From contig CAWFFN010000008.1 in the NCBI GenBank assembly GCA_963815115.1, positions 192,001 through 256,000 of the forward strand: 64,000 nucleotides of DNA, in the 5' to 3' direction. The translations under genes were made by a program, and so were the position numbers. The notes below the pieces were generated by a model. The model saw only the letters and a list, made by a program, of their open reading frames with translations. It did not search any database and was not told the DNA's origin. This stretch comes from an uncultured delta proteobacterium (lineage in GTDB: Bacteria > Desulfobacterota > Binatia > DP-6). This document shows positions 27,059 to 42,406 of this stretch, piece by piece; positions within the stretch are counted from its first letter, which is position 1, and every line of letters starts with the position of its first letter.

Positions 27059-27445
27059 TCACTCCTCGGTCGCGGCGATCAACCACTGGCTCTCCAGCCC
27101 CGCCGCCCGGTGCGTCCCGATCTCCTGCACGTGCGGATCCGTCGCGATCGCCACGAAGGCCTGCCGTGAGGGGTATTCCACGAGCCCGATCATGTGGAAC
27201 CCCTCCCCGCCCGTGCCGATGACCTGTGAATCCACCCGCCCCACCCACAGGAACCGCCCGCCCTTCGACTCGACGAACGCCCGCATCGCCTCCGCGTAGC
27301 GCCGGTACGCCTCCTCTCCCGACACTCCCTCGTCCGCCCCGTCCGCGCGGCGCTTGAAGCGCAGGAGGTTCACCATCACCACCGGCCGGTCCGCGGGACC
27401 GGCCAGCAGGGTTTCGATCTGCTGCGGGGTCGGGTAGAGCGCCAT
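27059..27445 (-). CDS. DUF1330-family protein
   Basis: PVVMVNLLRFK, SGEEAYRRY, LVEYPSRQAF, HRAAGL. Confidence 0.88.
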   Translation of the reverse strand: MALYPTPQQIETLLAGPADRPVVMVNLLRFKRRADGADEGVSGEEAYRRYAEAMRAFVESKGGRFLWVGRVDSQVIGTGGEGFHMIGLVEYPSRQAFVAIATDPHVQEIGTHRAAGLESQWLIAATEE

Positions 27446-27499: not shown

Positions 27500-27913
27500 T
27501 CACTCCAGAGCCCGAGGAGCGTGCAGGGTTATCGGGAGTACTCGCGCATAGTGCTGGAAGTCGCCGTCAGTCGTCAGAATGCCAAGCCCGCGTCTGTGCC
27601 CGATCGCGCACAGGAGGAAATCCGCGTTTGATCCCTGGATCCCGCGTGATCGGCATAGGTTGTAGAAACTGGCCGCATCTTCGTAGTCGGCTGTGCTGAG
27701 GGGGAGGTCCGGGAACGCCCGAAAGCGCTCGCGAAGGAGTTCGAACTGCTCGCGCGCTCTCACGCCCGACAGCAGCTCCTGGCGGATCGGACCGATCACG
27801 GCGGCACGCCCCTCGCCGATCAACTCCTGCAGCTCACGGCGGAAGGGACTGTCCTGTTCTTTCTTCCGGCGCAGCGCGAGCGACCATACCGGCGTGTCGA
27901 CCAGGATGTTCAC
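27500..27913 (-). CDS. vapC: PIN-domain toxin
   Basis: ILVDTPVWSL, QELLSG, DFLLCA, TTDGDF acidic motif set. Confidence 0.92.
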   Translation of the reverse strand: MNILVDTPVWSLALRRKKEQDSPFRRELQELIGEGRAAVIGPIRQELLSGVRAREQFELLRERFRAFPDLPLSTADYEDAASFYNLCRSRGIQGSNADFLLCAIGHRRGLGILTTDGDFQHYARVLPITLHAPRALE

Positions 27914-28110
27914 GAACGGCGGCGTTGTTTCTTGTAGTCCCAGTGCGGATCGAACTCGATCGTGCCGAACAGATCGAGGATCTTCGACTGGCGCCTGCGC
28001 TGGACGTATTCCTGCAGCGCTTGGGTGACCGTCTCCTTCTTCGTCCGGTGGCCACCGATGGCGCGCGCCTCTTCGAGGAGCCGGTCGTCGATCGCCAGAT
28101 TCGTCGGCAT
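27910..28110 (-). CDS. vapB: VapB-type antitoxin
   Basis: MPTNLAIDDRLLEEA...TKKETVTQALQEY; 4-nt overlap with the PIN gene. Confidence 0.92.
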   Translation of the reverse strand: MPTNLAIDDRLLEEARAIGGHRTKKETVTQALQEYVQRRRQSKILDLFGTIEFDPHWDYKKQRRRS

Positions 28111-28179
28111 GCGCATACTCTCACACAGGTCGGTGTGTAGCACAACCCATCCCGAGTCATGGCATCAGCAACGACACCA

Positions 28180-28324
28180 TGTGCATGGCCTTCCCCCCAC
28201 GAGCCACGCCGACGGTCCGGGCGCATTGCATCGCGGCGGAAACTGGTGTGGCGGCGGAGTCTTCACGCTGTTCGACTTCCTCCCGTCGCAGGTGAGGGTG
28301 GACTCGGGGTTCCGCTGTGTCTCA
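28180..28324 (+). pseudogene. C-terminal fragment of an FGE-sulfatase-like domain
   Basis: RGGNW...GFRC motif ending at the repeat; no N-terminus. Confidence 0.45.
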
Positions 28325-28366
28325 CTTCGGAGCTCCCTTTGGCGCGCGGGGATTGCGTCGGATAAG
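28325..28366 (+). repeat. Dispersed hairpin repeat copy A, left half (interrupted by IS110)
   Basis: CTTCGGAGCTCCCTTTGGCGCGCGGGGATTGCGTCGGATAAG, identical in copies B, C and D. Confidence 0.95.
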
Positions 28367-28408
28367 TTGCTCATGGCCCCTGCGGCCCCACCCTGGCGCA
28401 CGAAACCG

Positions 28409-28417
28409 TGGTACGCT
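28409..28417 (+). promoter_or_regulatory. Candidate extended -10 promoter for the IS110 ncRNA/transposase
   Basis: TGnTACGCT just upstream of the structured region. Confidence 0.4.
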
Positions 28418-28423
28418 GGAACG

Positions 28424-28586
28424 CCACGGCGGCGGAGAGCTCGGGAAATGGAGTGGTGCCTCCGAGCCCGTCGATAAGTTTGAGCCAGGGACCTTGCGAG
28501 CACCCCGGACGGTCGCCACGGCGACGTCGCTGTCGCCAGAGCACGCGTCCCAGGCTTCGATGACGCGGGTCCCGCGCCGCCGTCGC
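28424..28586 (+). ncRNA. Candidate IS110 bridge (seek) RNA
   Basis: Non-coding left end closed by a 9-bp stem ACGGCGGCG (28426-34)/CGCCGCCGT (28575-83); contains matches to target and donor junctions. Confidence 0.65.
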
Positions 28587-28603
28587 AGAAGGAGGGCCAC
28601 ACG

Positions 28604-29830
28604 ATGGAGGTGTTGCCTGCCCGCTGTGCCGGCCGCGACGTGCATCAAGCGACGGTCGTCGCCTGCGTGCGACGCGCCACGCGGAAGGCGGTGCGCCGGG
28701 AGACCCGGGAGTTCGGGACGTGCACGCGGGACCTGCTCGCGCTCGGGGACTGGCTGCGCACGCACGAGGTCACCCACGTCGTGATGGAGTCGACCGGGGT
28801 GTACTGGAAGCCCGTCTGGCACGTCCTGGCCGGGTCCGTCGAACTCGTCCTCGCCCATGCGACCGCGGTGCGCAACGTGCCTGGGCGCAAGAGCGCCGTC
28901 CGCGATGCGGCGTGGTTGGCGGATCTGCTCGCGCATGGCCTGATCCGGCCGAGCTTCGTGCCCGCCGCGGCGACGCAGGAGCTCCGGGGGCTCACGCGGA
29001 CCCGGACGCAACTCGTGCGCGAGCATACCCGGCACGCGCAGCGCGTCCACAAGGTCTTGGAGGACGCCAACCTCAAGCTCGCCACCGTGTTGGCGGACGT
29101 GTTCGGCAGCGCGGGGCGCGCGATCCTGGCGGCACTGGTGGACGGGGAGACGGACCCGGCGCGCCTGGCCGCGCTGGTCACCACCCGGGTCCAGGCCCCG
29201 CGGGCCGCGCTGACCGCGGCGCTGCACGGGACGGTCACCGACTACCATCGGTTCGAGTGGCGCCTCCACCTCGAGCGCATGGCCCAGCTCGATCACGCCA
29301 TCGCGGAGGTCGAAGAGCGCATCACCCATGCGCGCGCCCCCTTTGCGCTCGTCGTCGAGCGGCTCACGACCATCCCCGGGATCAGCCCGACGACGGCGCA
29401 TATCCTGCGCGCCGAGATCGGCCGCGACATGACGCGGTTTGCCACGGCTGGGCACCTGGTGGCGTGGGCCGGCCTCTGCCCCCGCCTCGACGAGAGCGCC
29501 GGCAAGCGCCGCTCTGTCCGCGTCCGCAAGGGCGGCCGGTGGCTCAAGACCGCGCTCGTCCAAGCGGCCTGGGCCGCCATCAAGGTGAAGGACTCCTACG
29601 TCCAGGCGCAGTACGTGCGCCTCAAGGCGCGGCGCGGGCCGAAGCAAGCCATCATCGCGGTGGCCGCCTCGATGCTCGTGGCCGCCTACCACATGCTGCG
29701 CGACGCGACCAACTACTGCGACCTCGGCGCTCACTACTTCGACCGCCGCGACACGCGCCGCGTCGCCGCCCGCCTCGTGCGCCGCCTCACCCAACTCGGC
29801 TACGCCGTCGAACTGCGGCCCGCCGCTTGA
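28604..29830 (+). CDS. IS110-family transposase/recombinase (third DEDD Asp replaced by Ala)
   Basis: DVHQ, MESTGVYWKP, GRKSAVRDA, TIPGI, WAGLCP..ESAGK, AIIAVA; AAGGAGG RBS. Confidence 0.96.
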   Translation: MEVLPARCAGRDVHQATVVACVRRATRKAVRRETREFGTCTRDLLALGDWLRTHEVTHVVMESTGVYWKPVWHVLAGSVELVLAHATAVRNVPGRKSAVRDAAWLADLLAHGLIRPSFVPAAATQELRGLTRTRTQLVREHTRHAQRVHKVLEDANLKLATVLADVFGSAGRAILAALVDGETDPARLAALVTTRVQAPRAALTAALHGTVTDYHRFEWRLHLERMAQLDHAIAEVEERITHARAPFALVVERLTTIPGISPTTAHILRAEIGRDMTRFATAGHLVAWAGLCPRLDESAGKRRSVRVRKGGRWLKTALVQAAWAAIKVKDSYVQAQYVRLKARRGPKQAIIAVAASMLVAAYHMLRDATNYCDLGAHYFDRRDTRRVAARLVRRLTQLGYAVELRPAA

Positions 29831-29855
29831 GGTGTGCCGATCAGTTTCGTACCAG

Positions 29856-29904
29856 GCCTTTTCCGTCACCTTTCACGAAAAGGGCGTTCATGGCGCCTAT
29901 GTCC
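29856..29904 (+). repeat. Dispersed hairpin repeat copy A, right half
   Basis: GCCTTTTCCGTCACCTTTCACGAAAAGGGCGTTCATGGCGCC, identical in B and D. Confidence 0.95.
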
Positions 29905-30211
29905 TGATCGTCGGGGCGGCGTATGCGATGCCCTCGGGCTCGATGCCGGCGTGCTCGCCGCCGCCGTGCGGGCGCGGTCGCCCGCGTGATCACGCCCGGC
30001 GTCACTCGTCGGCAAACACATCTGGTTCCTTCCGCCAATCGTCCAAACTGATCCTGAAATCGGGCGGAAATTTTCTGAGACGGCGGTGCTCACCGGCCTT
30101 CTTCAGTCGCGCATTCTCGTCCCATGCCCGCCTGTCCGACCCAACCCGCTGACTGCTGAATAGAGCGTCCGGGCGGGGGAGCACCAAGATGCAGAAGCAG
30201 GCCCGCGCGGG

Positions 30212-30531
30212 TCAGAGTCCGAGTGCCACGAAGTTGTCGCACAAGGCGACTGCGCTTATGGTCCCGTCGGCTGCGAAGCCGAGGGGGACCCCGCAATGCA
30301 CCTGTCCCAGTCCCCCCTCGTCGGTGAAGACGAAGCCCGGTTGGTCGGGCACCAAGAGCTCGTGGCATACACACGCGACCTTCATCTTGGCATGCTCCCC
30401 GGGGCTAATTGGGGAGCGACCTTCCCGATCAGCCTGTTGAACGTGTCCTGGTCGGTGGCGGCAGCAGGCCTCGCGGTGACCCCCCCCGCCAGCACGGCCA
30501 GCAGCCCGAGTGTCCAATACCGATGTGTCAT
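30212..30531 (-). pseudogene. Small secreted Cys-containing protein, frameshifted
   Basis: MTHRYWTLGLLAVLAGGVTARPAAATDQ signal peptide, continuing in another frame KVACVCHE...CDNFVALGL*. Confidence 0.55.
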
Positions 30532-30662
30532 TGGCGCATCCTCCTTACTGTCTCCGGCCGGCGACCTGCTCGTCGGCGTTCACTCCGGGGGCGTTCAAAC
30601 CGATCGAACAATGTACGGTCCGGTCCGGGTCGCGGGCCCGCGCCACGACAGTCGGCTACCAA

Positions 30663-30929
30663 GCGGCGGCGCGTCGACGCGGGTCCTTTCCTAGGCCCAG
30701 GCCGGCGGCGTGGCGGAGCGTGCTGGTGGTCACGGGCGACGCGCTCGAGGGCGAGCAGGTCATCGCGCGCGCGCACGTGCTCGCGGACAGCGACGTGCGA
30801 CGGGCGGGGCAGCGCGGCACGTTGCGCGTCACAAGCTGGCTCGCGGCGCGGCTGGGCGTGGCCTGTGCGGGCCCTACCGGCGGCGCCCCGGCGACGGGTC
30901 CTTCCCGGGCGGCCGGCCCGGCGTGGCGA
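30663..30929 (+). other. Two imperfect ~50-bp repeats each containing lambda cosQ-like GGGTCCT, upstream of terS
   Basis: GGGTCCTTTCC at 30681 and GGGTCCTTCCC at 30896 with shared flanks CGGCGGCGC and CGGCGTGGCG. Confidence 0.5.
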
Positions 30930-31017
30930 CGCCCCGCAAAATACGCCCAGCGGGTGGGCGCTGCGAGGGTTTTTGGTGGTTGTTGCCCGAGCCGGGTTGC
31001 GCTAGCGGGCACGGAGC

Positions 31018-31525
31018 ATGCCAGGCGAGCTGATGTCGCAGGCCGCGTACGGCCGCCGCCGCGGGATCTCGCAAGCGGCGGTCTGGAAGCGGACGACGGC
31101 GGCCGGCGGGCCGATCCCGGTGCACGGGCCGAAGAAGCTGATCGACGTCGCGGAGGCCGACGCGCTGTGGGAGGCCACCCGCACGGTGCAGGGCGAGGCG
31201 GGGGCCGAGACGGCGCACGAGGCGCCGACGTTCCCGTCGGGCAGTGACCTGTCGCGGGCGCGCGCCGCGGCGCTGGTGGTCGACGTGCAGACCAAACGGC
31301 TCGCGCTCGAGCAGCGCCGCGGCGCCCTCATCTCCCGCGACCGGGCGGTCACCAGGGCGTTCAGCTTCGCCCGCATGCTGCGCGACGCCTGGCTCAATTG
31401 GCCGACGCGGATCGGCCCGCCGCTCGCGGCGGACCTCGGCGTCGAGCCGGCCGTGCTGGTACTCGCGCTCGAGGAGCTCGTACGCGCACCTCCAAGAACT
31501 GGCGAGCGAGCGCTGCGAGTTCTGA
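31018..31525 (+). pseudogene. Phage terminase small subunit-like protein (Nu1-type), frameshift near 31485
   Basis: wHTH SQAAYGRRRGISQAAVWK; FARMLRDAWLNWPTRI..LAADLGV..HLQEL. Confidence 0.75.
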
Positions 31526-31878
31526 ACGAGGGTTACCGACGATCAGGGTACGCTACGGTTCGCCCGCGCGGAGAGCGCGCGAAGCCGGATGAGTGCTCCA
31601 GAGCCGCGCCGGTAGAGGAAACTCCCTCTAGCGGCGACCATGGAAATTGCGGGCGTTGACCCATGGGGACGGTACCAGCGATACGCACGCGGCGGTACGC
31701 GAGCGGGCCGGTCGGGCTTCCAGGGCTTGCGATGGTCCGCGCGCCAGCATTCGAGCAGGTGGCAAATCGGCGCCAGGATGGCGGTGAAGCAAACTGCGCA
31801 AACGTAGGCTGTCAAAATGGCGCAGCACATTTTCCTTTCCCTTACCGGGCGCTGCGCTCGGACTGGACCACCCCCAGG

Positions 31879-32658
31879 CTAGCGGAGCAGACTTACGATC
31901 CAGGGTAGGAACGGCACGACGTTCGTATCCCAGCTGAGGATGCCGGAGCAGTTCGCATCGCCGCCTGAGGTCACGCCAGCGAGTGTATCTCCGACTAAGA
32001 AGGGTCCGCCTGAGTCGCCGTGGCAGGTATCCTGCTGCCAGGGTCGAGCGCGCCAGCAGAGCGAACGGGCCAGATCGCCGGGCCAGACCCCGAGAGCTGC
32101 CATGCGTCTGGGACACCGCTTGAGACGTACGAAGCCCATCTCTTTGAGGCCCACGTTTCCCACCTCGTCCTGACCGTAGCCGACGATCGTGCCAACCGTC
32201 CGCGGACGTGGCGTCCGACCGGCCAGTGGCACCGGATTGACACCCGCGACGGGTGCCTCGAGCAGGAGCATCGCGAGGTCGGCGACAGGAAAGCGAAACT
32301 CAGGATGGATGGCGTAGCCGATGACGGCGTAGGAGGTTCTCGTGGTGGGAGTTGGGAAAAAGACGGCGTCGATCGCCACTGGGCCGTCAGCAACACAGTG
32401 CGCTGCCGTAAGGATCACAGACGGGCTGACCAGCGTGCCGGTACAGAGACCGTAGTTCATCGGGTTCTGGATGCTGAGGCCGGCGACTGCGGGATACGCC
32501 GCCGTGAAAACGCCGTTGATGATCTGGGGGACGGCGTGTTCGGCGAGATCTCGCTGGGCTTGCGGGACGGCGCGCAGCGCCGGATCCGGCAGCATTTGCC
32601 ACGCGTTCGCGTGCGCGTATCCCAGTGTAGTGACGAGGACTAACGACAGCAGTCGCAT
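31879..32658 (-). CDS. Secreted trypsin-like (S1) serine protease
   Basis: IING, CTGTLV..ILTAAHC, DLAML, GDSGGP. Confidence 0.95.
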   Translation of the reverse strand: MRLLSLVLVTTLGYAHANAWQMLPDPALRAVPQAQRDLAEHAVPQIINGVFTAAYPAVAGLSIQNPMNYGLCTGTLVSPSVILTAAHCVADGPVAIDAVFFPTPTTRTSYAVIGYAIHPEFRFPVADLAMLLLEAPVAGVNPVPLAGRTPRPRTVGTIVGYGQDEVGNVGLKEMGFVRLKRCPRRMAALGVWPGDLARSLCWRARPWQQDTCHGDSGGPFLVGDTLAGVTSGGDANCSGILSWDTNVVPFLPWIVSLLR

Positions 32659-32864
32659 TGACACGAACTTCCCTCTCTTCGAACGGTTGCCGGCGTGACC
32701 CCCATTGGCCGCGTTGGGCGCCCGGCTGGAGCGCCTGCTAGAGACGCCGGCTCCGTGCCGCGATGTGTCACGCCGCTCGCTGCCGACGCACAAAGATACA
32801 GCGTCGCCTGGCGATACAGCCCGCCCGTGCAGCGTTTCTGGGCTACTAGGTGGTTCTGCTACCG

Positions 32865-32959
32865 CGCCTGGTCGGAGGTATTCGGGCGCGGATCGCTCGC
32901 GCTTGCCGCGGAGTTCGGCGTCGAGCCATCCGTGCTTGTGCTCGCGCTCGCGGAGCTCG
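32865..32959 (+). repeat. Degenerate second copy of the terS 3' region
   Basis: LAAEFGVEPSVLVLALAEL vs LAADLGVEPAVLVLALEEL (31386-31480). Confidence 0.8.
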
Positions 32960-33098
32960 GGGGGAGGGCGAATCCTCGAGCTCAGCTTGATTGTTAACGA
33001 GGGTCTTCCAAGGTCCTACCAGGAGCGCGGCGACTCTTGAGATCCGCGCAGCCTGACGTGGGTCGTGGGACTATACGGAGCCATCCAATTCAAGTTAG

Positions 33099-33443
33099 AT
33101 GGTGACTAAAGGAGGACTCGTGTCCGATCACGACGAATCTCCACGAGGGGAGGGCCGTCAAGCTGCCCTTCAGGGAAGGGTCGACTTCCACCAAGCGCTA
33201 CTAAAGGAATACCGCACCCGCGGGTATCAGATTGTCCTTGCGCACGCAGGGCTGACTGTCAGCGCAGGTAGGTATGCCGTCGATCGTCCGGGACAGGAGT
33301 CGCTCGCGATCGCGTGTGCCATGACGGTCGTGACAGCCTTCCTGTACAACTGGCTCTCGCGTCTGAAGGAGAAATCGGACGGTCATCGAGATGACGCCAT
33401 GGGGCTGTACAAGCGTTTGGGGGTTGCGCTAGCTAGAGCGTGA
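33099..33443 (+). CDS. Small membrane hypothetical protein, possibly truncated
   Basis: Two hydrophobic stretches, lower GC; AAAGGAGG favours the GTG start at 33120. Confidence 0.5.
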   Translation: MVTKGGLVSDHDESPRGEGRQAALQGRVDFHQALLKEYRTRGYQIVLAHAGLTVSAGRYAVDRPGQESLAIACAMTVVTAFLYNWLSRLKEKSDGHRDDAMGLYKRLGVALARA

Positions 33444-33629
33444 TTCTGAGCACCAGCATTCACGGCACCGCCTTTGGGGTCCGCTCGTCTGGTTCCCGTG
33501 GGCAGCCCTTATAGGTCTTTGGATTTGGATATTGGGTGCAAACGTTCGAACGCTCTGTGCCCTCGTCAAGTAACGCCATCATGGTAGAGTCCGCCAGCGC
33601 GACTCGTGCGCCGGCATACGGCTGCCGGC

Positions 33630-34409
33630 CTAGCGTGGGACGCGGGCGCGCGAGACTCGATGCCCGCGGCGGTCTCGCGCGGAGGTAGTGGCCCCGCTAC
33701 GCCGGTCGTCGAGCTGATCCGTATCGCGCAACTGCTCGGCCGCACGCCCGAAGCGCACTTGGAGCTCCGAGTCCTCTTCGAGGCGCCCGAGGTAGCTCTC
33801 TCCCCCATCGATGGCCGAGGCGGCGATCTCGTCCGCCAGCATCTCGATACTGATGCAGAACACGTGATCGGCTGCCCACCGGGTGCCGAGATATCCCAAC
33901 CAGTGATAGGGCCGCGTCCGCTTGGGGTACACTTGGAGATGTCGGCGATGGCGACCGCGGGCATACTCCCAGGCGATGCAGCGGTCGCCGTAGTGCACCA
34001 CCATCTGCGGCTGCGCCAGATGGACGAGCTTGTGCCGCCACTGCTGTTGCAGGAGCACGATCTGCTCGTCGGTGTACCGCATGACTTCGCGCATATACGT
34101 CGCGGCTCGCTTGCTCGTCGCTCCTCTCCTCGTCTCGCCGGCGTAGAGCGCGCCCAAGAGATCGATGGTGGCGAAGCAATGGATGAGCGCCGGAAAGTCC
34201 ACGTGTCGCCCTAGGTCAACCTCGGCGCCGCACGCTCCGCACGACACGGATTTCCGTAGGCAATGCGCAACGGCCGTCCGTAGCTCGGCCGCGTGTCTCT
34301 GCAGCATGAGCCGCGCCATCTCGAGCAACGCCCGCTCATCTTCGAAGGGCCCTAGCGTGGGCACTGCGCGCCGATCTCCCGCCGCCCGCGCGCCTCGACC
34401 ACCTGTCAT
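33630..34409 (-). CDS. Hypothetical protein with HEPN-like Rx4H motif
   Basis: FPALIHCFATIDLLGALY...WRHKLVH. Confidence 0.6.
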   Translation of the reverse strand: MTGGRGARAAGDRRAVPTLGPFEDERALLEMARLMLQRHAAELRTAVAHCLRKSVSCGACGAEVDLGRHVDFPALIHCFATIDLLGALYAGETRRGATSKRAATYMREVMRYTDEQIVLLQQQWRHKLVHLAQPQMVVHYGDRCIAWEYARGRHRRHLQVYPKRTRPYHWLGYLGTRWAADHVFCISIEMLADEIAASAIDGGESYLGRLEEDSELQVRFGRAAEQLRDTDQLDDRRSGATTSARDRRGHRVSRARVPR

Positions 34410-34525
34410 GACGGCATGCTAGCCGAGTACACTGGGCCCTGCAACGAGCGCTGACGGTGCGGCGAATCAACGCGCGGGGTGGGCGCTGCCGCCGCACCGC
34501 TTCTTCTGGCGCGGCCGGGGTATCT

Positions 34526-34627
34526 CCCCCTTCGGAGCTCCCTTTGGCGCGCGGGGATTGCGTCGGATAAGGCCTTTTCCGTCACCTTTCACGAAAAGGG
34601 CGTTCATGGCGCCCATGTCCCCGACGA
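34526..34627 (+). repeat. Dispersed hairpin repeat copy B (empty IS110 target)
   Basis: Contiguous left and right halves; AG core at 34570-34571. Confidence 0.95.
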
Positions 34628-34645
34628 CGTGATCGCGGCGATGCG

Positions 34646-35306
34646 GTGAGTGCAGAGTACCGCAGGATCCGGATTGTGCCGCTGCTCGAGCCACCGCCGG
34701 CGAAACTGCGGTCGTCGGAACCTGCGCGCGGTGATAGACGGAGCGCCGTGGTCGATGCGCCCGAGCCGCTCACGGACGAGGCGCTGGAGAAGGTCCTCGT
34801 TCGCGGCCTGCAACCCGGACGGGTGACGCTGATCGAGTACAACCCGACATGGCCAGCGGCCTCCGGACCCACCGTGCCCGCATCGAGCAGGCCCTCGGCG
34901 ACCGGATCCGCCTGATCGAGCACATCGGATCGACCGCGGTTCCCGGGCTGGCGGCCAAACCGATCATCGACGTCGTGGTGGCGGTGGACGACCCGACGAC
35001 GAGGGCTCCTACCTCGACGACCTGGTGAACGCCGGGTACGGCGTGCGGGTCAGGGAGCCGGGCCACCGATGCCTGCGGTTCACCGAGGGCGAGCCCGCCA
35101 ACGTCCACTGCTATGCCCCCCGGGTCCGTCGAGATACGCCGCTACCTGGCGCTGCGCGACCGTCTGCGTGCCACGCCGACGAGCGCGCCTGGTACGAGGC
35201 CACGAAACGTGAGCTCGCGCAGCGGGAATGGAAGGACGTGAACCACTACGCCGAGGCCAAGGGGCCGGTCATCCGGGCAATCCTGGAGCGCGCCCGCTGT
35301 GACTGA
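34646..35306 (+). pseudogene. GrpB/UPF0157-family protein, several frameshifts
   Basis: EYNPTWP, IEHIGSTAVPGLAAKPIID, YEATKRELA, YAEAKGPVI in different frames. Confidence 0.85.
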
Positions 35307-35527
35307 TCCACCGGGACAGGGCACTCGGCGGGCTGCAAGTTCGTAGCGCCGACTCGTTCCCAAGCGACCGATCACCGCCGACTGAGCGTCGCCTGGTCCC
35401 GATTCCCTGAATCCTCCGGAAGGTGGACCCCTGCATCCACCCTCGCGGCCCGTGCGTAGGGTCCATGAAATGGTTGCCGAACCGGCCGAATCCCGGCCGA
35501 AAATCCCGGGCAGCCCGGAGGAGTCCC

Positions 35528-36211
35528 ATGATGACCATTCGTTCCGAGAGTAGCAGGTGGCTGGCCCGTGCCGCGGTGGTCGCGGCGATCGCGGTCGCAC
35601 GCGTGAGCAGCGCACAGGAGCTCGATCAGAAGCAGTTCAACCTGTTCCCGGACCCATCGGTCGTGCGATGCCTGGCCGCGTTCCCCGACGATCCGTCGCG
35701 CCCGCCGTCGGCGAGCGTCACGGTCAAGCGCGGCAAGCTCAACGACCGCCTCGACATCACGCTGCGTAACATCAAGCCCGGGCTCGCCTTCGACATGTTC
35801 ACCGTCGAGCACAGCAAGTTCCTCGCCAACGGGACCGTCGATCCCGCCTTCGTCGCCCGGAACAAGAGCTTCGGCCTCGCCTGGTACCAGTCGGACCTCG
35901 AGGTAAAGAACGACCACCGCAACGTGACCACGATCCAGACCATCCTCGTCGACCAGATCTTCGGGTTCGACCCCGTCGTCGGGCTCGATCCGACCAACAC
36001 CTTCCACGTCGGCTTCTGGTTCAACGACCCGCAGGTTCCCTTCGACCTCGGGTGCGAGCCCGGCGCGGCGACGCCCACCGTGACTCCGTTTAACGGCGAG
36101 CACCACGCCGGCCCGCTCGCCATGATCAGCCTCCCCGAGGCGGCGACCGATCTCGGCCCGCTCTGCCTCAACCCCGATCTGTCCAGCGATCCGGTCCACT
36201 GCAATCCGTGA
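35528..36211 (+). CDS. Secreted hypothetical protein
   Basis: GGAGGAG RBS, signal peptide, LAWYQSD, TFHVGFWFNDP, FNGEHHAG. Confidence 0.8.
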   Translation: MMTIRSESSRWLARAAVVAAIAVARVSSAQELDQKQFNLFPDPSVVRCLAAFPDDPSRPPSASVTVKRGKLNDRLDITLRNIKPGLAFDMFTVEHSKFLANGTVDPAFVARNKSFGLAWYQSDLEVKNDHRNVTTIQTILVDQIFGFDPVVGLDPTNTFHVGFWFNDPQVPFDLGCEPGAATPTVTPFNGEHHAGPLAMISLPEAATDLGPLCLNPDLSSDPVHCNP

Positions 36212-36341
36212 GTGGCCACCCATCAGGCCCGGGCTGCCCCGGGTGTTTCAGTCGAGCGCGTGGGCCCCGGGCCCGCGCGCTCGCGCGTTTCGGGTCCAGC
36301 CGTTCGGCGACCACGGGGGGCCGCCACGCGAGCGGTAGCAT

Positions 36342-36405
36342 TCGTCGCCGGACTTCGGCCTTATCCGACGCAATCCCCGCGCGCCAAAGGGAGCTCCGAA
36401 GGGGG
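36342..36405 (-). repeat. Dispersed hairpin repeat copy C (inverted, short-loop variant)
   Basis: Reverse complement reads CCCCCTTCGGAGCTCC...GTCGGATAAGGCCGAAGTCCGGCGACGA. Confidence 0.92.
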
Positions 36406-36419
36406 CGCCGCACCCCACG

Positions 36420-36990
36420 CGCTGCGCGCTTCGGCGGGGAGTTCTACTGGACCGCGGACCTGGTCCGAAGCATCGAGGCCTTGCGGCAGAATCTACTCGA
36501 CGCGCGCGCGCTCCTCGGTTGGCTGCAGGCCGAGGACCCGCGCCCGGTCGGTGTCATGGGGCTCAGTCTCGGCGGCGCGCTGACCCTCGCGCACACCTGC
36601 CTGGAGCCCCGCTTCGCGTTTTCGATCCCGCTGATCGCACACATGGACCTCGCCGCGATGGTGGCAGACGCGCCCGTCCTGCGCAGCATGCGGCACGAGC
36701 TACGCCAGTTCGGCTGGGGTGTCGACGAGTTCGGGCGCTTCGTCCGCGACATCGGCTGGTACGACCTGGCGCCGAGGCTGCCGCCCGACCGCATCTACAT
36801 GTTCGCGGCATCGGACGACCGCTTGTTCGACCCGGGCATCGTGGAGGAAATGTGGCGGCGCTGGGGGCGGCCGGCGATCCGTTGGTACCCCGGAAGTCAC
36901 ATGGGCTTCCTCGTGCGCTTCCCCGACGCGATCGCGGAAGCGCGGCGCTTCATCGATCAGTCATCGGACCGCGGGGGCCGGGGCGATTGA
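36420..36990 (+). pseudogene. 5'-truncated alpha/beta hydrolase
   Basis: GLSLGG nucleophile elbow, ASDDR, GSHMG; no plausible start after repeat C. Confidence 0.75.
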
Positions 36991-38893
36991 CAGCAGACGC
37001 GTCACCGTCGCCCGGCGTGGCGGGCAGCACTATGGACCGCGCATTGCCGGCATTCCGTCGGTCCGACAGGATGCTGTCGTAGGTCACGACGGCGCCGCCG
37101 CCGGTCGCGGCCAGCGATGTGACGGCGTCATTGGCCGTCCCGGTCACGAGCGGAAATCCCTCGAGGTCGACCACTGAACCCGCCCGCGTGACCCGCGCGC
37201 CGTAGACGTCCGTGCCGTTCGTGGCCGCCTCCCGGCCGTCCGTCCACACGACGAGATACTCCGCACCCGTGAAGGCCGCCGCGATTCCGGTCTTCGCGCC
37301 CGGCGCGCTGGATACCACGAACTCGTCGCCGTCGGCCGAGAGATCTGCATGACGAAGCTGGCCTCGGATGACGGCCTTCTCCACCCAGAGGATGAGGTAC
37401 GATTCGCCGTCCGAAACGAGAGCGTGTGGCTCATCGTTGTATCGCCGGTCACTTTCCATCGGCCAGGGGACTGGCAGCACGGGCCGCGGCGGTAGAGCCA
37501 CGGCAGGTCCAGGCGACGCCGGTCCCGTCGCGGGCGCGATTGCGGCGCTCCACGCGGTGGGCTTCCAGCGGTTGCTGTAGGGAGCCGGGCTGCCAGGGGG
37601 CGGGAAATGCTCCCAGTCGGTGGAGGACCAGAGCACGCCGAATCCCCCCGCGCCCGGTACGACGAGGCCGTGCTGATCGCCGTGGGCCGCAATGGTGACG
37701 GGCGACGTCGCGCCGGACGAGAGGCGCGCTGCCCCCAGCACATAGCCGAGCTTCGAGCAGCTTCCGCAGCTCGTGAAGAGATCGATGACGATTTCCGACC
37801 AGAGCACGAAGTAGGCGCCGTCCTGGTAGGCCACCTGCGCGCCCGCGAACCAGCGGTCTCCCCCCTCGGATTCCAGCGACTTCAGCAACACGGGCTGTTC
37901 CAACGCAGTCCCGACCGCCGAGAGGCGAAGAGTGTAGAGCTCGACCGGTAAATCGGGCCCCGGCGTGGTGGCTGCCCGGAAGCCGACGCCATCAGAGGTG
38001 AGCCCTGCAATATCGGGCGGAAATACGAGCTCTCCCGGGTCGATCCAGGAGCCGTCCGGCCCGACGCGGCGCCAATGCTCGCCACCACTGTCGTGCCACC
38101 GCAACAGCGCACCGCCCGGTGCCGCCGTAGCGACCACCGCCCGCGAATCAGGTGCGGCGACAGGTGGGAGGACTTCCGGGCTGACGCTCGGCGCCCCCGC
38201 CGTCGTCGTGGTGGTCGACGTGGTGGTGGTCGTGGTCGTCGCTGGTGTCTCGAGCGCAGCGACGAACGCAGCCACGCAGACGTCGTCGATGATCGCCCCC
38301 ACCTCCGCCGCGTTGCCGAGCGGCGGCAGGCAGCGGTTCCGCGACTTCACCTCGAGCTTCGTGAAGCAGCCTTTGGTCGGATCGGCGCCCCCGTCGAACT
38401 TCGCTTTCGTCTTGTCGAGGCAGCCGTCGGCGTTCGGATCGTTCGGCTTCCCGGGGGTCTCCGCCTTCCGGTGGCACGTGAGCACGCTCCGCAGCTTCTG
38501 GGCCGCACACATCTTCTTCCCGGCGTTGCACTTGCTCTGGGTGAGTGGGGCCGGGTCGATCGCGCCGACGACCTGCTGCACGCACACGTCAACCAGCATC
38601 GCGACGAACGCGGTATCGTCGAACGTCACGCAGTCGTTGCGCGTCTTGGTCTCAAGCTTCCCGAAGCAGGTATCCGGCCCGACGACACCGAACTTGGCCC
38701 GCGCCTTGTCGATGCAGGCGCCGGCGTTCGGGTCCGCCGTCTTCTCGCATTTCAGCAGTGAGTCGACTGCCTTCGAGACACACTCGTTCTTGCCGGCCAG
38801 GCACTTGGTCTGCGGTCCCGCGGCGACGTCGGTCACGGCGGCCGTGAGCACGACCAGGACGCCGAATGCAACGAGGTTCAGGTGCTTCGTCAT
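36950..38893 (-). CDS. Secreted protein: tandem Cys-rich helical domains, Thr linker, beta-repeat domain
   Basis: Signal peptide MTKHLNLVAFG; KCLAGK and KCNAGK repeats; TTTTTTTSTTTTT; DGESYLILW, YLVVWTDGR, DVYGARV. Confidence 0.85.
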   Translation of the reverse strand: MTKHLNLVAFGVLVVLTAAVTDVAAGPQTKCLAGKNECVSKAVDSLLKCEKTADPNAGACIDKARAKFGVVGPDTCFGKLETKTRNDCVTFDDTAFVAMLVDVCVQQVVGAIDPAPLTQSKCNAGKKMCAAQKLRSVLTCHRKAETPGKPNDPNADGCLDKTKAKFDGGADPTKGCFTKLEVKSRNRCLPPLGNAAEVGAIIDDVCVAAFVAALETPATTTTTTTSTTTTTAGAPSVSPEVLPPVAAPDSRAVVATAAPGGALLRWHDSGGEHWRRVGPDGSWIDPGELVFPPDIAGLTSDGVGFRAATTPGPDLPVELYTLRLSAVGTALEQPVLLKSLESEGGDRWFAGAQVAYQDGAYFVLWSEIVIDLFTSCGSCSKLGYVLGAARLSSGATSPVTIAAHGDQHGLVVPGAGGFGVLWSSTDWEHFPPPGSPAPYSNRWKPTAWSAAIAPATGPASPGPAVALPPRPVLPVPWPMESDRRYNDEPHALVSDGESYLILWVEKAVIRGQLRHADLSADGDEFVVSSAPGAKTGIAAAFTGAEYLVVWTDGREAATNGTDVYGARVTRAGSVVDLEGFPLVTGTANDAVTSLAATGGGAVVTYDSILSDRRNAGNARSIVLPATPGDGDASAVNRPGPRGPMTDR

Positions 38894-39366
38894 GACCCGT
38901 CTCCGCGCTGCCCGCGGTTGGTCGTCGACCCTTGTATCGTCTCGGGACGCGCGAGGCGCGTCGCCGGTAGCCCGAGTCCTCGTCCAGCGCGCTCCCGCCG
39001 ATCGCAGCCCCCGATCGACGGACATCGCGAGACTCGAGCGCAAGGCGCGTGCCACACACTCGTCACGGAGGCAATGTGGCTCTTCCGGAGACCGCGTGGA
39101 CCTCGACTCTCGTCCGTCGGAATCGAGCGGGGCGTCTTCCCAAGATCGGGAAGCGACTCGCGCTGGCATAGTCCTCAGTGCTAGCCTGACATCTTTCACG
39201 GTGGGCTAGACCGTCGCATACGGCCGGCCCTCCAGTCAGGGGAAGATAACGGTGGGTGAGGACAAGCCGTCGAGCACATGGGCTACCTATGGCGAGTGCC
39301 CTGCTGAAGCCTCCCGCTGCGAGCCCCGGCGCGCGGCGCGGGACAGGCTTGGGACGCGTCCGGCGG

Positions 39367-40680
39367 TCATGGGTGGCGTGACGTCCACGCGGGGTCATCG
39401 GTCACGAGCTGCGTGAGCCAGGTCAGCAGAGTCGTCTCGTTCTCACTGAAGTTCGCCGGCGTGAACAGGGTGGTGTGCGTCGACCCGGGGAAGAAGAAGT
39501 AGTGGAAGCGGGCGGTCGGATCGAGCCGGTCCGCTGCCATGGTCACTAGCGCGCTCTGGAACGCCGGGCCGGAGAGCCCGGAGCCCGAGCTGATCGTCTC
39601 GTCTTGCAACGAGGAGATGAGCGCTAGGCGGGAGCCTGGGTACGTGCTCGCGAGTCCCGAGAAGAACAGGGACATATCGGTGCGACAGGGTGCGCCGCAC
39701 ACCGGGTCGGTGACGCGGTCGAGCCGCCAGCTCGCGAACGCGGGCGCATAGGACACCAATGGCGCCGAGGACGGCTCCAGGAACGGGCCCGAGTCGTCGA
39801 CCATCTCGACGGTCGCCGCGGGCCACCGTCCGCGGACGTCCGGGTAGTTCAACGCCGCGCCTAACCCGCCTGCCGATGAGCCGGCGATCACGACGCGATC
39901 GGCACCCGGGAACGTCGGCGCGAGCCGCGCCAGGTAGGCGAGCACGTTCGCGTGCCCGACGTGATAAAACATCCTCGTCGTCTGGCCGTCAAGGCTCGTG
40001 TAGGTGGCGACGTTCGTGCCGGCATGGAAGTCTCCGGTGCAGTACGGGACTATGACGAAGCTCCAGTCCTTAAATGGGTTCGCGGACATAGTTCGATCGA
40101 ACACAGTGCCGGTCAGATACTGAACGAACGCCGCAAACTGTGCTTGCCCAAACGGCCCGTGGACGGCCGTGTTCAGCACGAAGCACGTCAGGTAGTCCCA
40201 GCACCCGCCGCCGCCGTTCAGGAACACGAGGACGTGGTCCGACATCGCCGACGGGTTCAGGCCGATGCCCGTCGCCGAGCCGTCGTCGCAGGCGGAGTCC
40301 GGAAAATCGACCCATGTCCACGTATTGGTGGGCGCGACAATCGCTGAACCACCGGGGAGGGTCGTGCTGATGGTGGACGTCGTCGTCGTCGTCGAGCTTG
40401 TCGTCGTTGTTGTGGTAGGACACACGGGAGTACCCGTCTCCTTGCAGCTAGCTGCGCAGGATGAGGTAACCTGACTATGACATTGATGCTTGGCCTTTCT
40501 CATGCACCTACGAGCCTTACCACGTGGTGAAGTAGGACATGAGGCGACCGCAGCATCAACACAATCAATGACAGCACCGGAACAGGTCGATGCACACTCA
40601 TGGCAGGCCTTGGGAGTCTTGGCCATCGAACTCCCAATCGGGATAAGGACAAGCCACAATACACTCAGGAAATATCTCAT
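39367..40680 (-). CDS. Pectin-acetylesterase/Notum-like hydrolase with N-terminal Cys-rich domain and Thr linker
   Basis: CDDGSATG, FLNGGGGCW, VPYCTGDFHAG, GSSAGG, DSGP, GSTHT. Confidence 0.9.
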   Translation of the reverse strand: MRYFLSVLWLVLIPIGSSMAKTPKACHECASTCSGAVIDCVDAAVASCPTSPRGKARRCMRKAKHQCHSQVTSSCAASCKETGTPVCPTTTTTTSSTTTTTSTISTTLPGGSAIVAPTNTWTWVDFPDSACDDGSATGIGLNPSAMSDHVLVFLNGGGGCWDYLTCFVLNTAVHGPFGQAQFAAFVQYLTGTVFDRTMSANPFKDWSFVIVPYCTGDFHAGTNVATYTSLDGQTTRMFYHVGHANVLAYLARLAPTFPGADRVVIAGSSAGGLGAALNYPDVRGRWPAATVEMVDDSGPFLEPSSAPLVSYAPAFASWRLDRVTDPVCGAPCRTDMSLFFSGLASTYPGSRLALISSLQDETISSGSGLSGPAFQSALVTMAADRLDPTARFHYFFFPGSTHTTLFTPANFSENETTLLTWLTQLVTDDPAWTSRHP

Positions 40681-40701
40681 CGGTCTCGCCTTGTAGCGAC
40701 C

Positions 40702-41244: not shown

Positions 41245-41532
41245 TTGTCATCCCGTACTGCTCGCACAAGACTTGGGCCAAACTTGTTGCCAATTCTCTG
41301 CGGGAGGCCACCTGGCACTAACGCGACTCCCCATGCGTCCCTAGCATCCACGAGTATGAGATTGTTATTGTCATAGTGACGGGGATCCGGAGGGGCCAAG
41401 CAGGCCTCTGCCCCTGGGAAATTGAGGCACTGGCACGTCATGGTGGTGGACGACCAGAAGCTGTTGGGCCCAGGATGCGCCACCTACTAGATGGGCCATC
41501 AGTGCTATTACCAAGAGCCGTACCAAGCGCAT
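41241..41532 (-). pseudogene. Small secreted protein, frameshifted
   Basis: GAAGGAG RBS, MRLVRLLVIALMAHLVGG, continuing in another frame TCQCLNF..ACLAP. Confidence 0.45.
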
Positions 41533-41974: not shown

Positions 41975-42074
41975 CCCCTTCGGAGCTCCCTTTGGCGCGC
42001 GGGGATTGCGTCGGATAAGGCCTTTTCCGTCACCTTTCACGAAAAGGGCGTTCATGGCGCCTAATCCGCGACGA
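41975..42074 (+). repeat. Dispersed hairpin repeat copy D (empty IS110 target)
   Basis: Contiguous left and right halves; AG core at 42018-42019. Confidence 0.95.
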
Positions 42075-42336: not shown

Positions 42337-42406
42337 CGCAGACGAGATTCTTGTGCGGTCCACGCGTGCAACGTGTCCGCGCGGGGGACGTCCGGGTAAT
42401 ACTGCG

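What the first reader, a model, noticed from the sequence alone, without database searches (positions are those of the whole stretch)
28325..29904. IS110 inserted in a dispersed repeat, with filled and empty target sites in one window
Seen: the left junction is GTCGGATA[AG]TTGCTC and the right junction is TTTCGTACC[AG]GCCTTTT. Empty copies at 34570 and 42018 read GGATA[AG]GCCTTTT; copy C (36360, minus strand) reads GGATA[AG]GCC and then diverges. The element is therefore 28367-29855 with a 2-nt core (CT on the bottom strand), and the predicted circle junction is TTTCGTACC[AG]TTGCTCATG. Known: IS110 recombinases such as IS621 use a CT core and target REP repeats. Inference: this is a new recombinase/target pair aimed at a lineage-specific repeat. 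Here CT lies on the strand opposite the transposase.
Basis: partly seen in the sequence, partly recalled or inferred. Interest (0 to 1): 0.85.

Follow-up and report, generated by a model that had tools for sequence, protein, structure and literature searches.

The report
Site-specific IS110 element, probably disabled

Summary
A 1489-bp IS110-family element (window 28367-29855) interrupts a ~90-bp repeat at a 2-nt AG core. Uninterrupted copies lie at 34520 and 41975, and a left-half copy at 36357-36405 (minus strand).

A second copy (99.3% identical) on another contig sits at the same position and orientation in a diverged copy of the repeat. One soil-metagenome contig joins a 97% variant to the same repeat half, with a different outer flank.

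The repeat is not REP-like. There are about 8-10 copies in 6.9 Mb, four of them within 14 kb, and it was found in 2 of 41 related genomes.

The 237-nt left end encodes a bridge-RNA-like structure with two homologous internal loops. Three guide segments match the left junction, the right junction and the right target flank, and they covary with the flanks in about 60 relatives.

The guide order is the mirror of IS621. This explains why CT lies antisense to the recombinase gene, and it is a trait of the whole subfamily.

Both copies carry Ala at the third DEDD residue, which is Asp in 81 of 83 relatives and aligns with IS621 D102. They also carry a donor-guide mismatch. The element here is probably non-autonomous.

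Verdict: a new member of a known kind, of moderate interest.

The parts
28325..28366 (+). Left half of target repeat copy A (left target). The last 2 nt (28365-28366) are the AG core.
   Evidence: 100% identical to the left halves of copies B and D.
28367..29855 (+). IS110-group insertion sequence, 1489 bp, counted with the right-hand core copy (29854-29855).
   Evidence: A second copy lies at G000:C5:1395110-1396598 (minus strand), 99.3% identical.
28367..28603 (+). Left non-coding end (237 nt), which encodes the bridge-RNA-like ncRNA.
   Evidence: alignable across 78 relatives. Four helices, 86.2% of cells paired, 15 of 20 pairs with double changes, 0 of 500 shuffles as high.
28400..28406 (+). 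ACGAAAC, the left arm of a subterminal inverted repeat. It is complementary to GTTTCGT at 29844-29850 in the right end.
   Evidence: the column pair is 100% Watson-Crick, MI 0.98; of the 56 of 63 loci whose best inverted repeat is >=6 bp, the left arm lies at +30..+39 in 47.
28439..28485 (+). Loop 1, the target-binding loop. Outer stem 28439-28442 / 28482-28485; inner stem 28454-28459 / 28466-28470.
   Evidence: helices 1 and 2 are 95.7% and 98.3% paired, with compensatory changes. This element has GCUC/GAGC where the family has GGUC/GACC.
28443..28453 (+). 5' strand of loop 1, carrying guide G0 (GGAAAUGG, 28444-28451). [quoted passage not shown]
   Evidence: across the family the mean longest run against the reverse complement of the right flank is 3.93, versus 2.45 for shuffled pairs (maximum 2.79 in 300). 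26 of 61 have runs of >=5 nt.
28471..28480 (+). Guide G1 on the 3' strand of loop 1: UCGAUA-AG-UU. It has the same sense as left target + core + the first 2 nt of the element (CGGATA-AG-TT), matching 8 of 10.
   Evidence: a locus's own guide matches its left junction at >=9 of 10 in 47 of 78 loci, versus 12 of 1087 for other loci's guides.
28488..28573 (+). Loop 2, the donor-binding loop. Outer stem 28488-28493 / 28568-28573; inner stem 28511-28516 / 28541-28545. 28511 is G here, but T in the C5 copy, in the family and in the X2-X4 contigs.
   Evidence: helix 4 is 93.9% paired. Helix 3 is only 63.4% paired.
28546..28555 (+). Guide G2: CGUCCC-AG-GC. It has the same sense as right end + core + the first 2 nt of the right target (CGTACC-AG-GC), with one mismatch at 28549.
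   Evidence: own guide matches 8 of 8 in 46 of 78 loci, versus 1 of 1125 for non-self guides; contigs of X2, X3 and X4 read A at 28549, which makes the match perfect.
28604..29830 (+). Recombinase gene, 408 aa. The codon at 28895-28897 (GCC) encodes Ala98 at the third DEDD position.
29831..29855 (+). Right non-coding end, 25 nt including the AG core. The left-donor segment CGTACC is at 29848-29853.
29856..29904 (+). Right half of target repeat copy A (right target), containing the hairpin CCTTTTC...GAAAAGG.
   Evidence: The metagenome contigs lose similarity after 29904.
34520..34620 (+). Empty repeat copy B; core AG at 34570-34571.
36357..36405 (-). Copy C: the left half through core + GCC, followed by unrelated or strongly diverged sequence.
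41975..42060 (+). Empty repeat copy D; core AG at 42018-42019. Its right edge abuts a C-terminal DUF899 fragment.

Best explanation
This is an IS110-group insertion sequence: a DEDD/serine recombinase gene preceded by a 237-nt non-coding left end. It integrated by conservative recombination at a 2-nt core (AG in the sense of the gene) into a low-copy, lineage-specific ~90-bp repeat.

The left end encodes a bridge-RNA-like molecule with two homologous internal loops.
- Loop 1 reads the target. [quoted passage not shown] - Loop 2's 3' strand (G2) does the same for the end of the element plus the core.

This is the IS621 scheme read on the opposite DNA strand. The conserved CT core is therefore antisense to the recombinase gene throughout this subfamily.

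Shown: the junctions, the empty sites, two independent insertions, the family-wide covariation of guides with flanks, and the RNA helices.
Inferred: that the RNA is made and that it guides the recombination.

The two copies in this genome are probably non-autonomous relics. Their recombinase has Ala in place of the third DEDD aspartate, G2 has a mismatch to its own end, and the window copy has a further change at a conserved loop-2 position. They would have been moved by an intact sibling or a related recombinase, or they decayed after moving.
For: Junctions and empty sites.

Protein domains.

Second copy: it has the same left flank GCGTCGGATA-AG and a right flank ACCCTTTCCGTCACC. The flanks are otherwise unrelated and the base right after the core differs, so this is not a segmental copy or a conversion tract.

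Metagenome: X3 record 23 covers 29438-29904 with 12 differences and then runs into a different flank.

Guides: 63 of 78 aligned relatives have G1 >=8 of 10 at the left junction and G2 >=7 of 8 at the right end. The non-self controls are far lower. G0 shows runs of 3.93 versus 2.45 for shuffled pairs.

Structure.

Genome-wide scan with the guide-derived ideal target: among 124,875 scored AG sites the single best (12 of 14) is repeat copy C9b, and copies B and D are among the 26 sites scoring 11.

IS621 rules and the role of D102: passages of PMC11208160 and PMC11208158.

Ala98.
Against: - No RNA data: all runs were contigs, and the RNA runs held 0.06 of the sampled words.
- A fourth guide, for the left-end side of the donor, was not found.
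- This element's guides fit its own target imperfectly. G1 matches 4 of 6 non-core bases. G0 matches 7 of 8 only with a 1-nt shift, and I chose that register knowing the target.
- Helix 3 of loop 2 is only 63.4% paired.
- Both copies share Ala98 yet occupy different sites. Either the change does not kill activity, or help came in trans; neither was tested.
- Ala98 belongs to a class of change (A:T to C:G) that is oddly over-represented in this element. An assembly artefact is therefore not excluded.
- Contig cover of 28896 was thin and nothing was reported for that base: the X1 and X2 contigs listed do not reach it, and one X4 contig (record 28, 28885-29152) spans it.
Confidence: 0.8

Rival explanations
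1. One reading: an active, autonomous new recombinase/target pair now spreading through a lineage-specific repeat.
For: The ORF is open and both ends are intact. Two copies are 99.3% identical at the same site position. Two identical empty sites lie nearby.
Against: Ala98 stands at the IS621 D102 position, which is Asp in 81 of 83 relatives and in all 14 nearest database proteins. In IS621, mutation of D102 abolished recombination (PMC11208158). N85H and S170A also hit positions conserved in 80 of 81 and 76 of 81 relatives. G2 has a mismatch that the soil variants lack. All 8 coding differences between the copies are nonsynonymous. The best-matching empty site (C9b) and sites B and D remain empty.
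Confidence: 0.15
2. The element is intact. Ala98 and the other A:T-to-C:G changes are sequencing or assembly errors in a repeated region.
For: All 10 differences between the two copies are A/C or G/T. Genome-wide, 179 of 1017 differences between recent duplicates are of that class. The window element has G or C where X2 contigs have T or A 18 times, against once in the opposite direction. From recall, not tested: loss of one colour channel in two-colour Illumina chemistry gives A>C and T>G.
Against: Ala98, His85, Arg100 and Ala170 are present in both independently placed copies. An independent contig set (X1) reproduces the C5 copy's G at 28614. Other recent duplicates in the same assembly do not show the bias.
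Confidence: 0.15
3. The ~90-bp 'repeat' is not a free-standing repeat. It is the end or a recombination site of another mobile or duplicated module, and the IS targets that module, as some IS110/IS1111 members target other elements.
For: Copy D abuts a DUF899 C-terminal fragment whose N-terminal part is nowhere in the genome. C9b abuts what looks, by eye, like a truncated TetR-type helix-turn-helix (not tested by Pfam). All three loci that hold the repeat also hold paralogues of small gene Y, and two hold gene X. The window region has a VapBC pair and lower G+C. Precedent: ISEc21 targets IS3 transposase genes (PMC11187229), and a paper title in a reference list reports IS4321/IS5075 targeting Tn21 ends.
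Against: The repeat has no terminal inverted repeat and no target duplication (by eye). No transposase or integrase is consistently next to it. X and Y have no Pfam family. G001's two copies have no X or Y within 1.5 kb.
Confidence: 0.25
4. The second copy arose by homologous recombination or gene conversion between repeat copies, not by transposition.
For: The repeat halves offer 40-50 bp of homology on each side.
Against: The two sites' repeat halves are only about 83% alike. They differ at the first base after the core (G versus A) and 13 nt left of it, so no flank was co-converted.
Confidence: 0.04

Closest known systems
IS621 (IS110 group; bridge RNA; Durrant 2024 PMC11208160, Hiraizumi 2024 PMC11208158)
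   Same: The same two Pfam domains, and IS621 is the only solved relative (8wt6, E 1.1e-9). Long left end and short right end. A 2-nt core present in target and donor. No inverted ends. An RNA encoded upstream with two internal loops whose strands match the two DNA strands around the core. Two extra 'handshake' bases that match the partner DNA. Insertion into a repeated sequence.
   Different: The recombinase is 408 aa; the solved IS621 chain is 328 aa. The sequence match is distant and covers two stretches only. The guide order is mirrored: here the 5' strand of loop 1 pairs with the top strand, and the 3' strand pairs with the bottom strand and carries the handshake bases. The core therefore reads AG in the gene's sense (CT antisense). 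No guide was found for the left-end half of the donor. The target is a low-copy repeat, not REP. The third DEDD residue is Ala.
IS1111-type seekRNA elements (ISEc11, ISKpn4, ISPa11; Siddiquee 2024 PMC11187229)
   Same: The order of the target matches is the same: the top-strand complement lies 5' of the bottom-strand match (passages).
   Different: In IS1111 elements the non-coding region lies downstream of the gene, and the ends carry 11-13-bp subterminal inverted repeats. Here the non-coding region is upstream. 0 of 63 relatives have a >=7-bp inverted repeat within 25 nt of both ends. The 5-8-bp inverted repeat that does exist is asymmetric, at +30..+39 on the left and -4..-6 on the right.
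ISEc21 (IS110 type with upstream non-coding region; PMC11187229)
   Same: Upstream non-coding region, and an RNA that matches both strands of the target.
   Different: In ISEc21 the bottom-strand match precedes the top-strand match. Here the order is the reverse.
ISPpu9 / ISPpu10 (Pseudomonas putida, REP-targeting IS110 members)
   Same: Orientation-specific insertion into a short repeated intergenic sequence, with filled and empty copies in one genome (abstracts seen in the listing).
   Different: Their targets are abundant REP sequences. Here there are about 8-10 copies, found in 2 of 41 related genomes.

Membership tests
IS110 family (IS110 group) | N-terminal RuvC-like DEDD domain (PF01548) | tested here: met
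   E 9.3e-23, 81.2 bits (cut-off 29), residues 9-154.
IS110 family (IS110 group) | C-terminal Tnp domain (PF02371) with the conserved serine | tested here: met
   E 8e-24. Ser298 is conserved in 82 of 83 relatives and lies in the stretch aligned to the IS621 Tnp domain.
IS110 family (IS110 group) | Complete DEDD tetrad (IS621 D11, E60, D102, D105) | tested here: not met
   D12, E62 and D101 are present (83 of 83 each). Position 98 is Ala in both copies of this genome and Asp in the other 81 of 83. It aligns with IS621 D102. This argues against activity, not against descent from the family.
IS110 family (IS110 group) | No terminal inverted repeats; a short core shared by target and element rather than a target duplication | tested here: met
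   2-nt AG core; no inverted repeat close to both ends.
IS110 family (IS110 group) | Long left non-coding end, short right end | tested here: met
   237 nt and 25 nt. In relatives the left end is mostly 212-255 nt and the right end mostly 12-40 nt.
IS110 family (IS110 group) | Sequence- and orientation-specific insertion | tested here: met
   2 of 2 genomic copies plus one metagenome contig are at the same position and orientation.
IS110 family (IS110 group) | Circular intermediate with abutted ends and a junction promoter | not testable with these tools
   Only contigs could be laid. No circle-junction joint was reported, but contigs cannot show rare forms.
Bridge RNA of the IS621 type | Two internal loops, each with a strand matching each DNA strand around the core | tested here: inconclusive
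   Loop 1: both strands found (G0, G1). Loop 2: only the 3' strand (G2) was found; no guide for the left-end side.
Bridge RNA of the IS621 type | The 5' strand of each loop pairs with the bottom strand and the 3' strand with the top strand; CT core in the sense of the gene | tested here: not met
   The order is reversed and the core is AG in the sense of the gene (rule taken from PMC11208160).
Bridge RNA of the IS621 type | The RNA is expressed and bound by the recombinase | not testable with these tools
   No usable RNA reads.
IS1111 group | Non-coding region downstream of the gene; subterminal inverted repeats of 7-17 bp | tested here: not met
   The non-coding region is upstream. 0 of 63 relatives have a >=7-bp inverted repeat near both ends.
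REP / MITE-type dispersed repeat (for the target) | Tens to hundreds of copies spread over the genome; a palindromic unit or terminal inverted repeats | tested here: not met
   About 8-10 copies. One internal 7-bp-stem hairpin and no terminal inverted repeat (by eye). No Rfam family.

The most novel reading that the evidence does not exclude
The element belongs to a very large, cross-phylum subfamily of long (~408 aa) IS110 recombinases whose upstream-encoded bridge RNA is built as a tandem duplicate of one loop module. Each module is an outer stem, a 5' guide, UGN(N)GC...GCNCG, and a 3' guide + core + 2 nt. It reads DNA in the mirror order of IS621. The crossover site is therefore inverted relative to the gene, with CT antisense. 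The left-end half of the donor has no detectable RNA guide. That half may instead be recognised through a conserved CATGG-hairpin and an asymmetric, covarying subterminal inverted repeat (left +34, right -4). If no one has described this, it is a third architecture of RNA-guided DEDD recombinases, beside IS621/ISEc21 and IS1111.
Probability: 0.3. Interest if true: 0.6.

Novelty: new member of a known kind. Interest (0 to 1): 0.4.

Why it matters
For this genome, the finding is a well-behaved example of RNA-guided, site-specific insertion, with filled and empty sites side by side. It gives clean boundaries, the core and a target.

More broadly, the alignment of about 60 relatives gives a testable map of three guide segments and the RNA helices for a large subfamily. 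That subfamily was characterised in none of the passages I read, and it occurs in cultured Burkholderia, Caballeronia, Variovorax, Streptomyces and others. The map also explains the strand of the CT core.

The Ala98 copies are a natural case of a non-autonomous bridge element. Only A:T-to-C:G changes separate the two copies. That pattern is an unexplained mutational or technical signal worth a look at the reads.

Tried and rejected
Rfam: a scan of 27500-43000 at E<=1 gave only a chance miRNA hit. Nothing matched the left end or the repeat.

Single-sequence fold of the left end: not better than shuffles (z = 0.73). The structure claim therefore rests on the alignment.

RNAalifold on 46 sequences predicted only the loop-1 helices. 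I wrote the loop-2 helices by analogy and counted them. Helix 3 is weak.

Fourth guide (for the first bases of the left end): an anchored-run test, a sliding scan of all columns and mutual information all found nothing above shuffles. A weak signal at window 28411-28425 (z = 3.5) lies in a conserved GGUAC stretch, and I set it aside.

Handshake bases after G2 against the right target: no covariation signal. They fit this element's own site (GC), but I make no family-wide claim.

First boundary estimate for the 60%-related IS on C9: comparing copies gave a 1572-bp unit. The family alignment showed that the true left junction is 85 bp further in.

Readings of the repeat that I rejected by eye:
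- sigma-54 promoter (the GG..GC spacing is wrong);
- ECF -35/-10 promoter (the spacing varies from 7 to 22);
- a Tn3-type inverted repeat;
- a MITE with terminal inverted repeats;
- a peptide coded on the minus strand (the frame is broken in the C5 version);
- an RBS plus start codon for a downstream gene (the short ORFs stop after 5-8 codons, and the ATG is out of frame with the DUF899 fragment).

DUF899 N-terminal half: not found near copy D or anywhere as a fragment.

Half-sites C and C9b as products of recombination at the core: possible, but copy C can also be read as a copy with an internal deletion. I left this open.

Read laying joint 28364->29854 in X1 (it skips 1489 nt; 28 letters on the shorter side): it can come from the identical empty copies B and D, so it is not evidence of excision. 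Parts of the element without contig cover say nothing.

Papers that gave nothing on core strand or guide order: 10.1101/2024.06.21.599552 (passages), 10.64898/2026.08.14.744561 (passages), and the search (1 unrelated review).

I did not see figures or supplements of any paper. Durrant's Extended Data Fig. 10c (six diverse elements) and his supplementary tables may already show the mirrored order. My statement that I found no description rests on searches and the passages.

Full report
**1. The observation**

- The left junction is GCGTCGGATA-AG|TTGCTCATGG.
- The right junction is TTTCGTACC-AG|GCCTTTTCC.

The base before AG differs between the right junction (C) and the target (A). The base after AG differs between the left junction (T) and the target (G). 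The shared core is therefore exactly two bases, and the element is 28367-29855 (1489 bp).

The 14-mer GGATAAGGCCTTTT occurs exactly at 34565 and 42013. By chance 0.03 matches are expected, and none of 100 shuffles reached the observed number. With the element removed, copy A is 100% identical to copies B and D over 86 nt. Copy C, on the minus strand, matches through GGATAAGGCC and then differs.

The only convincing gene inside is 28604-29830. It encodes 408 aa with PF01548 and PF02371.

**2. Independent insertions**

The genome (12 contigs, 6.9 Mb, about 70% G+C) holds one more full copy, at C5:1395110-1396598 (minus strand), 99.3% identical. It sits in a diverged version of the same repeat, in the same orientation and at the same position. 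Its left flank is ...GCGTCGGATA-AG and its right flank is ACCCTTTCCGTCACC....

The two sites' repeat halves are about 83% alike. They differ at the first base after the core, and the DNA beyond them is unrelated. This rules out a segmental duplication or a conversion tract.

I laid contigs from four soil or peat metagenome runs. One 576-nt contig (X3, record 23) covers 29438-29904 with 12 differences and one gap. It is a ~97% variant of the element joined to the right half of the repeat. It carries the letter variants seen in the C9 copies and then runs into a different flank. This is contig evidence only, and I cannot rule out a related strain with a rearranged locus.

**3. What the target is**

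The repeat is rare. blastn and an nhmmer profile find:
- four copies in the window (28325, 34520, 36357-36405 and 41975);
- the filled copy on C5;
- a full copy and a right-half copy on C9, 2.4 kb apart;
- two or three weak diverged members.

Among 41 genomes of the same class it was found in 2: the genome itself and one congener, which has two copies 3.7 kb apart.

The unit has three parts: a conserved left module ending in GCGTCGGATAAG, a hairpin (CCTTTTC...GAAAAGG) whose sequence and length vary between versions, and a conserved right edge. It matches no Rfam family. It has no terminal inverted repeat and does not code.

It keeps company with paralogous genes. A 101-aa gene (Y) lies near the repeat in all three loci, and a 262-aa secreted-looking gene (X) in two. 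Neither has a Pfam family.

Copy D abuts a C-terminal DUF899 fragment whose other half is nowhere in the genome. C9b abuts what looks like a truncated TetR-type gene; I judged that by eye and did not test it.

The window segment from 27 to 42 kb has a VapBC pair and lower G+C. The repeat may belong to a larger accessory module. I could not decide this.

**4. The RNA**

I collected relatives of the recombinase: 13 places in 7 of 41 related genomes and 80 loci from named genome records of many phyla, at 42-62% identity. The 330 nt upstream of the start codon align well in 78 loci.

Two short variable segments stand in conserved contexts:
- G1: GAGCCCG-N6-core-N2;
- G2: GAGCACG-N6-core-N2.

G1 repeats the left junction in the same sense: 5-6 bases of the flank, the core, and the first two bases of the element. 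G2 repeats the last six bases of the element plus the core.
- A locus's own G1 matches its left junction at >=9 of 10 positions in 47 of 78 loci, against 12 of 1087 trials with other loci's guides.
- A locus's own G2 matches 8 of 8 in 46 of 78 loci, against 1 of 1125.

Junction positions were picked by best match, so the non-self control is the fair measure. The junctions also align with each other in the multiple alignment, independently of the guides.

A third segment, G0, lies on the 5' strand of the same loop as G1. It is the reverse complement of the right target flank, with a register that floats by 0-2 nt. Its mean longest run is 3.93, against 2.45 for shuffled pairs (maximum 2.79 in 300). 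26 of 61 loci have runs of five or more.

**5. Structure**

RNAalifold on 46 sequences finds the two helices that close loop 1. I wrote the homologous helices of loop 2 by analogy and counted all four.
- 86.2% of cells pair, against 79.6% in shuffles.
- 15 of 20 pairs have changes on both sides.
- None of 500 shuffles reached any of the five measures.
- Sliding the partners by 1-3 columns drops pairing to 27-49%.
- The outer helix of loop 2 is weak (63.4%).

The two loops are built alike: an outer stem, a 5' strand, UGG(U)GC...GCCCG or UGU(C)GC...GCACG, and a 3' strand carrying guide + core + 2 nt.

In this element loop 1 has 11 nt on each side. This element's outer stem is GCUC/GAGC where the family has GGUC/GACC, which is a compensatory pair of changes.

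**6. Why CT is antisense**

[quoted passage not shown] Here the 5' strand (G0) pairs with the top strand. The 3' strands (G1, G2) pair with the bottom strand, and G1 carries two bases that match the partner DNA. That match reaches 92% and 85% identity at the first two element bases.

Read on the other DNA strand, every one of these relations becomes the IS621 relation, and the core becomes CT. Among 63 relatives with confident junctions the core in the gene's sense is:
- AG in 43;
- AA in 13;
- AC in 1;
- mis-sliced by my script in 6, where by eye it is also AG.

It is a property of the subfamily: the crossover site is inverted relative to the gene and its RNA.

Siddiquee et al. report the same order (top-strand complement first) for IS1111-type elements and the opposite order for ISEc21 (passages). 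IS1111 elements, however, carry the non-coding region downstream and have long subterminal inverted repeats. This subfamily has neither. In the text I could read, I found no description of an upstream-encoded RNA with this order. Figures and supplements were not visible to me.

**7. What I could not find**

No segment covaries with bases 3-7 of the left end. That part of the donor is partly conserved (N5-CATGG followed by a covarying hairpin).

A 5-8-bp inverted repeat links left-end position +30..+39 (ACGAAAC here) to right-end position -4..-11 (GTTTCGT). One column pair is 100% complementary across the family. These features may stand in for the missing guide. That is inference.

**8. Fit of this element to its own target**

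The fit is imperfect.
- G1 is UCGAUA-AG against CGGATA-AG.
- G0 is GGAAAUGG against the complement of CCTTTTCC, 7 of 8 with a one-base shift.
- G2 is CGUCCC-AG against CGTACC-AG.

Even so, scoring every AG in the genome against the guide-derived ideal puts repeat copy C9b alone at the top (12 of 14). Copies B and D are among the 26 sites scoring 11, out of 124,875 scored sites. I allowed the shifted register knowing the target, which flatters this test.

The contigs of runs X2, X3 and X4 read A at 28549, which makes G2 a perfect match. They read T at 28511, the base conserved across the family.

**9. State of the recombinase**

The only solved relative is IS621 (E 1.1e-9). In that alignment IS621 E60, D102 and D105 fall on E62, A98 and D101.

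Position 98 is Asp in 81 of 83 family proteins. The two exceptions are the two copies of this genome. The 14 nearest proteins in the large collection, at 90% to 68% identity (P0002-P0015), all read KSD..DA.

In IS621, mutating D102 abolished recombination in vitro and in bacteria (PMC11208158).

His85 (Asn in 80 of 81) and Ala170 (Ser in 76 of 81) are further departures. All eight coding differences between the two copies change the protein. Seven of them are derived in the C5 copy, judged against P0002.

The element as assembled is therefore probably unable to move itself. Both copies share Ala98, so one of the following holds:
- an intact sibling or a related recombinase moved it (the genome has four copies of a 60%-identical element with the same RNA scaffold);
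- the change is tolerated;
- the change was spread by conversion.

None of these was tested.

**10. An oddity that bears on point 9**

All 10 differences between the two copies are A/C or G/T, and the derived base is always C or G. The shared departures at residues 85, 98, 100 and 170 are of the same class. Against X2 contigs the window has G or C for T or A 18 times, and the reverse once.

Other recent duplicates in the genome show this class in 179 of 1017 differences. I have no explanation. A technical cause is not excluded, although the alleles recur in both copies and one of them recurs in an independent contig set.

**11. Verdict**

The element is a new member of a known kind: a site-specific IS110-group insertion sequence with a bridge-type RNA. 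It sits in a rare lineage-specific repeat and is probably disabled. The mirrored guide order of its subfamily is the most interesting by-product, and it may or may not already be on record.

Noticed in passing
G000:C9:341962-343540, 352679-354264, 428601-430190 (loci L020-L022) and C9:366325-367570 (L023): A 60%-related IS110 element occurs as three identical 1572-bp units. Each unit carries 85 bp of what was left-flank DNA, so the guide-matched left junction CCGTAACA-AG|TT now lies inside the unit. The units' outer flanks share no target, do not match the element's own guides, and show no consistent core duplication. In the fourth copy the right end + AG is followed directly by the start of the 85-bp extension, like a tandem or circle junction. 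This recalls the 'expanded' IS110 loci and one-sided boundary matches in passages of preprint 10.64898/2026.08.14.744561.
   Followed up: partly
window 28367-29855 versus G000:C5:1395110-1396598: All 10 differences between the two copies are A:T<->C:G transversions, with the derived base always C or G. The same class accounts for the departures from conserved residues 85, 98, 100 and 170. Genome-wide duplicates show this class in 179 of 1017 differences. Whether this is a mutational signature or a technical artefact is unknown.
   Followed up: partly
window 42064-42336 (+) and G000:C9 around 1121170-1121215 (minus strand): Gene fragments abut the repeat. A C-terminal DUF899 piece (profile positions 174-224 of 224) starts right after copy D, and its N-terminal part is absent from the genome. 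A TetR-like helix-turn-helix reading frame seems to end at the core of half-site C9b (by eye). This suggests rearrangements with breakpoints at the repeat.
   Followed up: partly
window 30212-30517 (-) and 35423-36211 (+); paralogues at C9:1123709-1125165 and C5:1398675-1398927: Two genes without a Pfam family travel with the repeat. Y (101 aa, C-terminus ...CDNFVALGL) has 3 copies. X (262 aa, apparently with a signal peptide, C-terminus ...SSDPVHCNP) has 2 copies at 82% identity.
   Followed up: partly
window 27500-28143 (-): A VapB antitoxin (PF09957, E 1.2e-18) and a PIN-domain toxin (PF01850, E 2.4e-8) lie immediately upstream of repeat copy A. A DUF1330 gene is at 27059-27445.
   Followed up: yes
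loci L043, L044, L052, L059 and others (table): Several relatives are inserted next to sequences that look like the right end (TTTTC-N6-core) or the left-end start of sibling elements. Examples: the right flank of L043 is a left-end start, and the left flank of L044 equals the right end of L059. These look like tandem or nested insertions at donor-like sites.
   Followed up: no
window 31879-32793 (-), 39367-40680 (-), 40000-42000: A trypsin-family protease gene and a pectinacetylesterase-family gene lie between the repeat copies. G+C falls to 57-60% at 40-42 kb, against about 70% elsewhere. This is consistent with acquired DNA.
   Followed up: no
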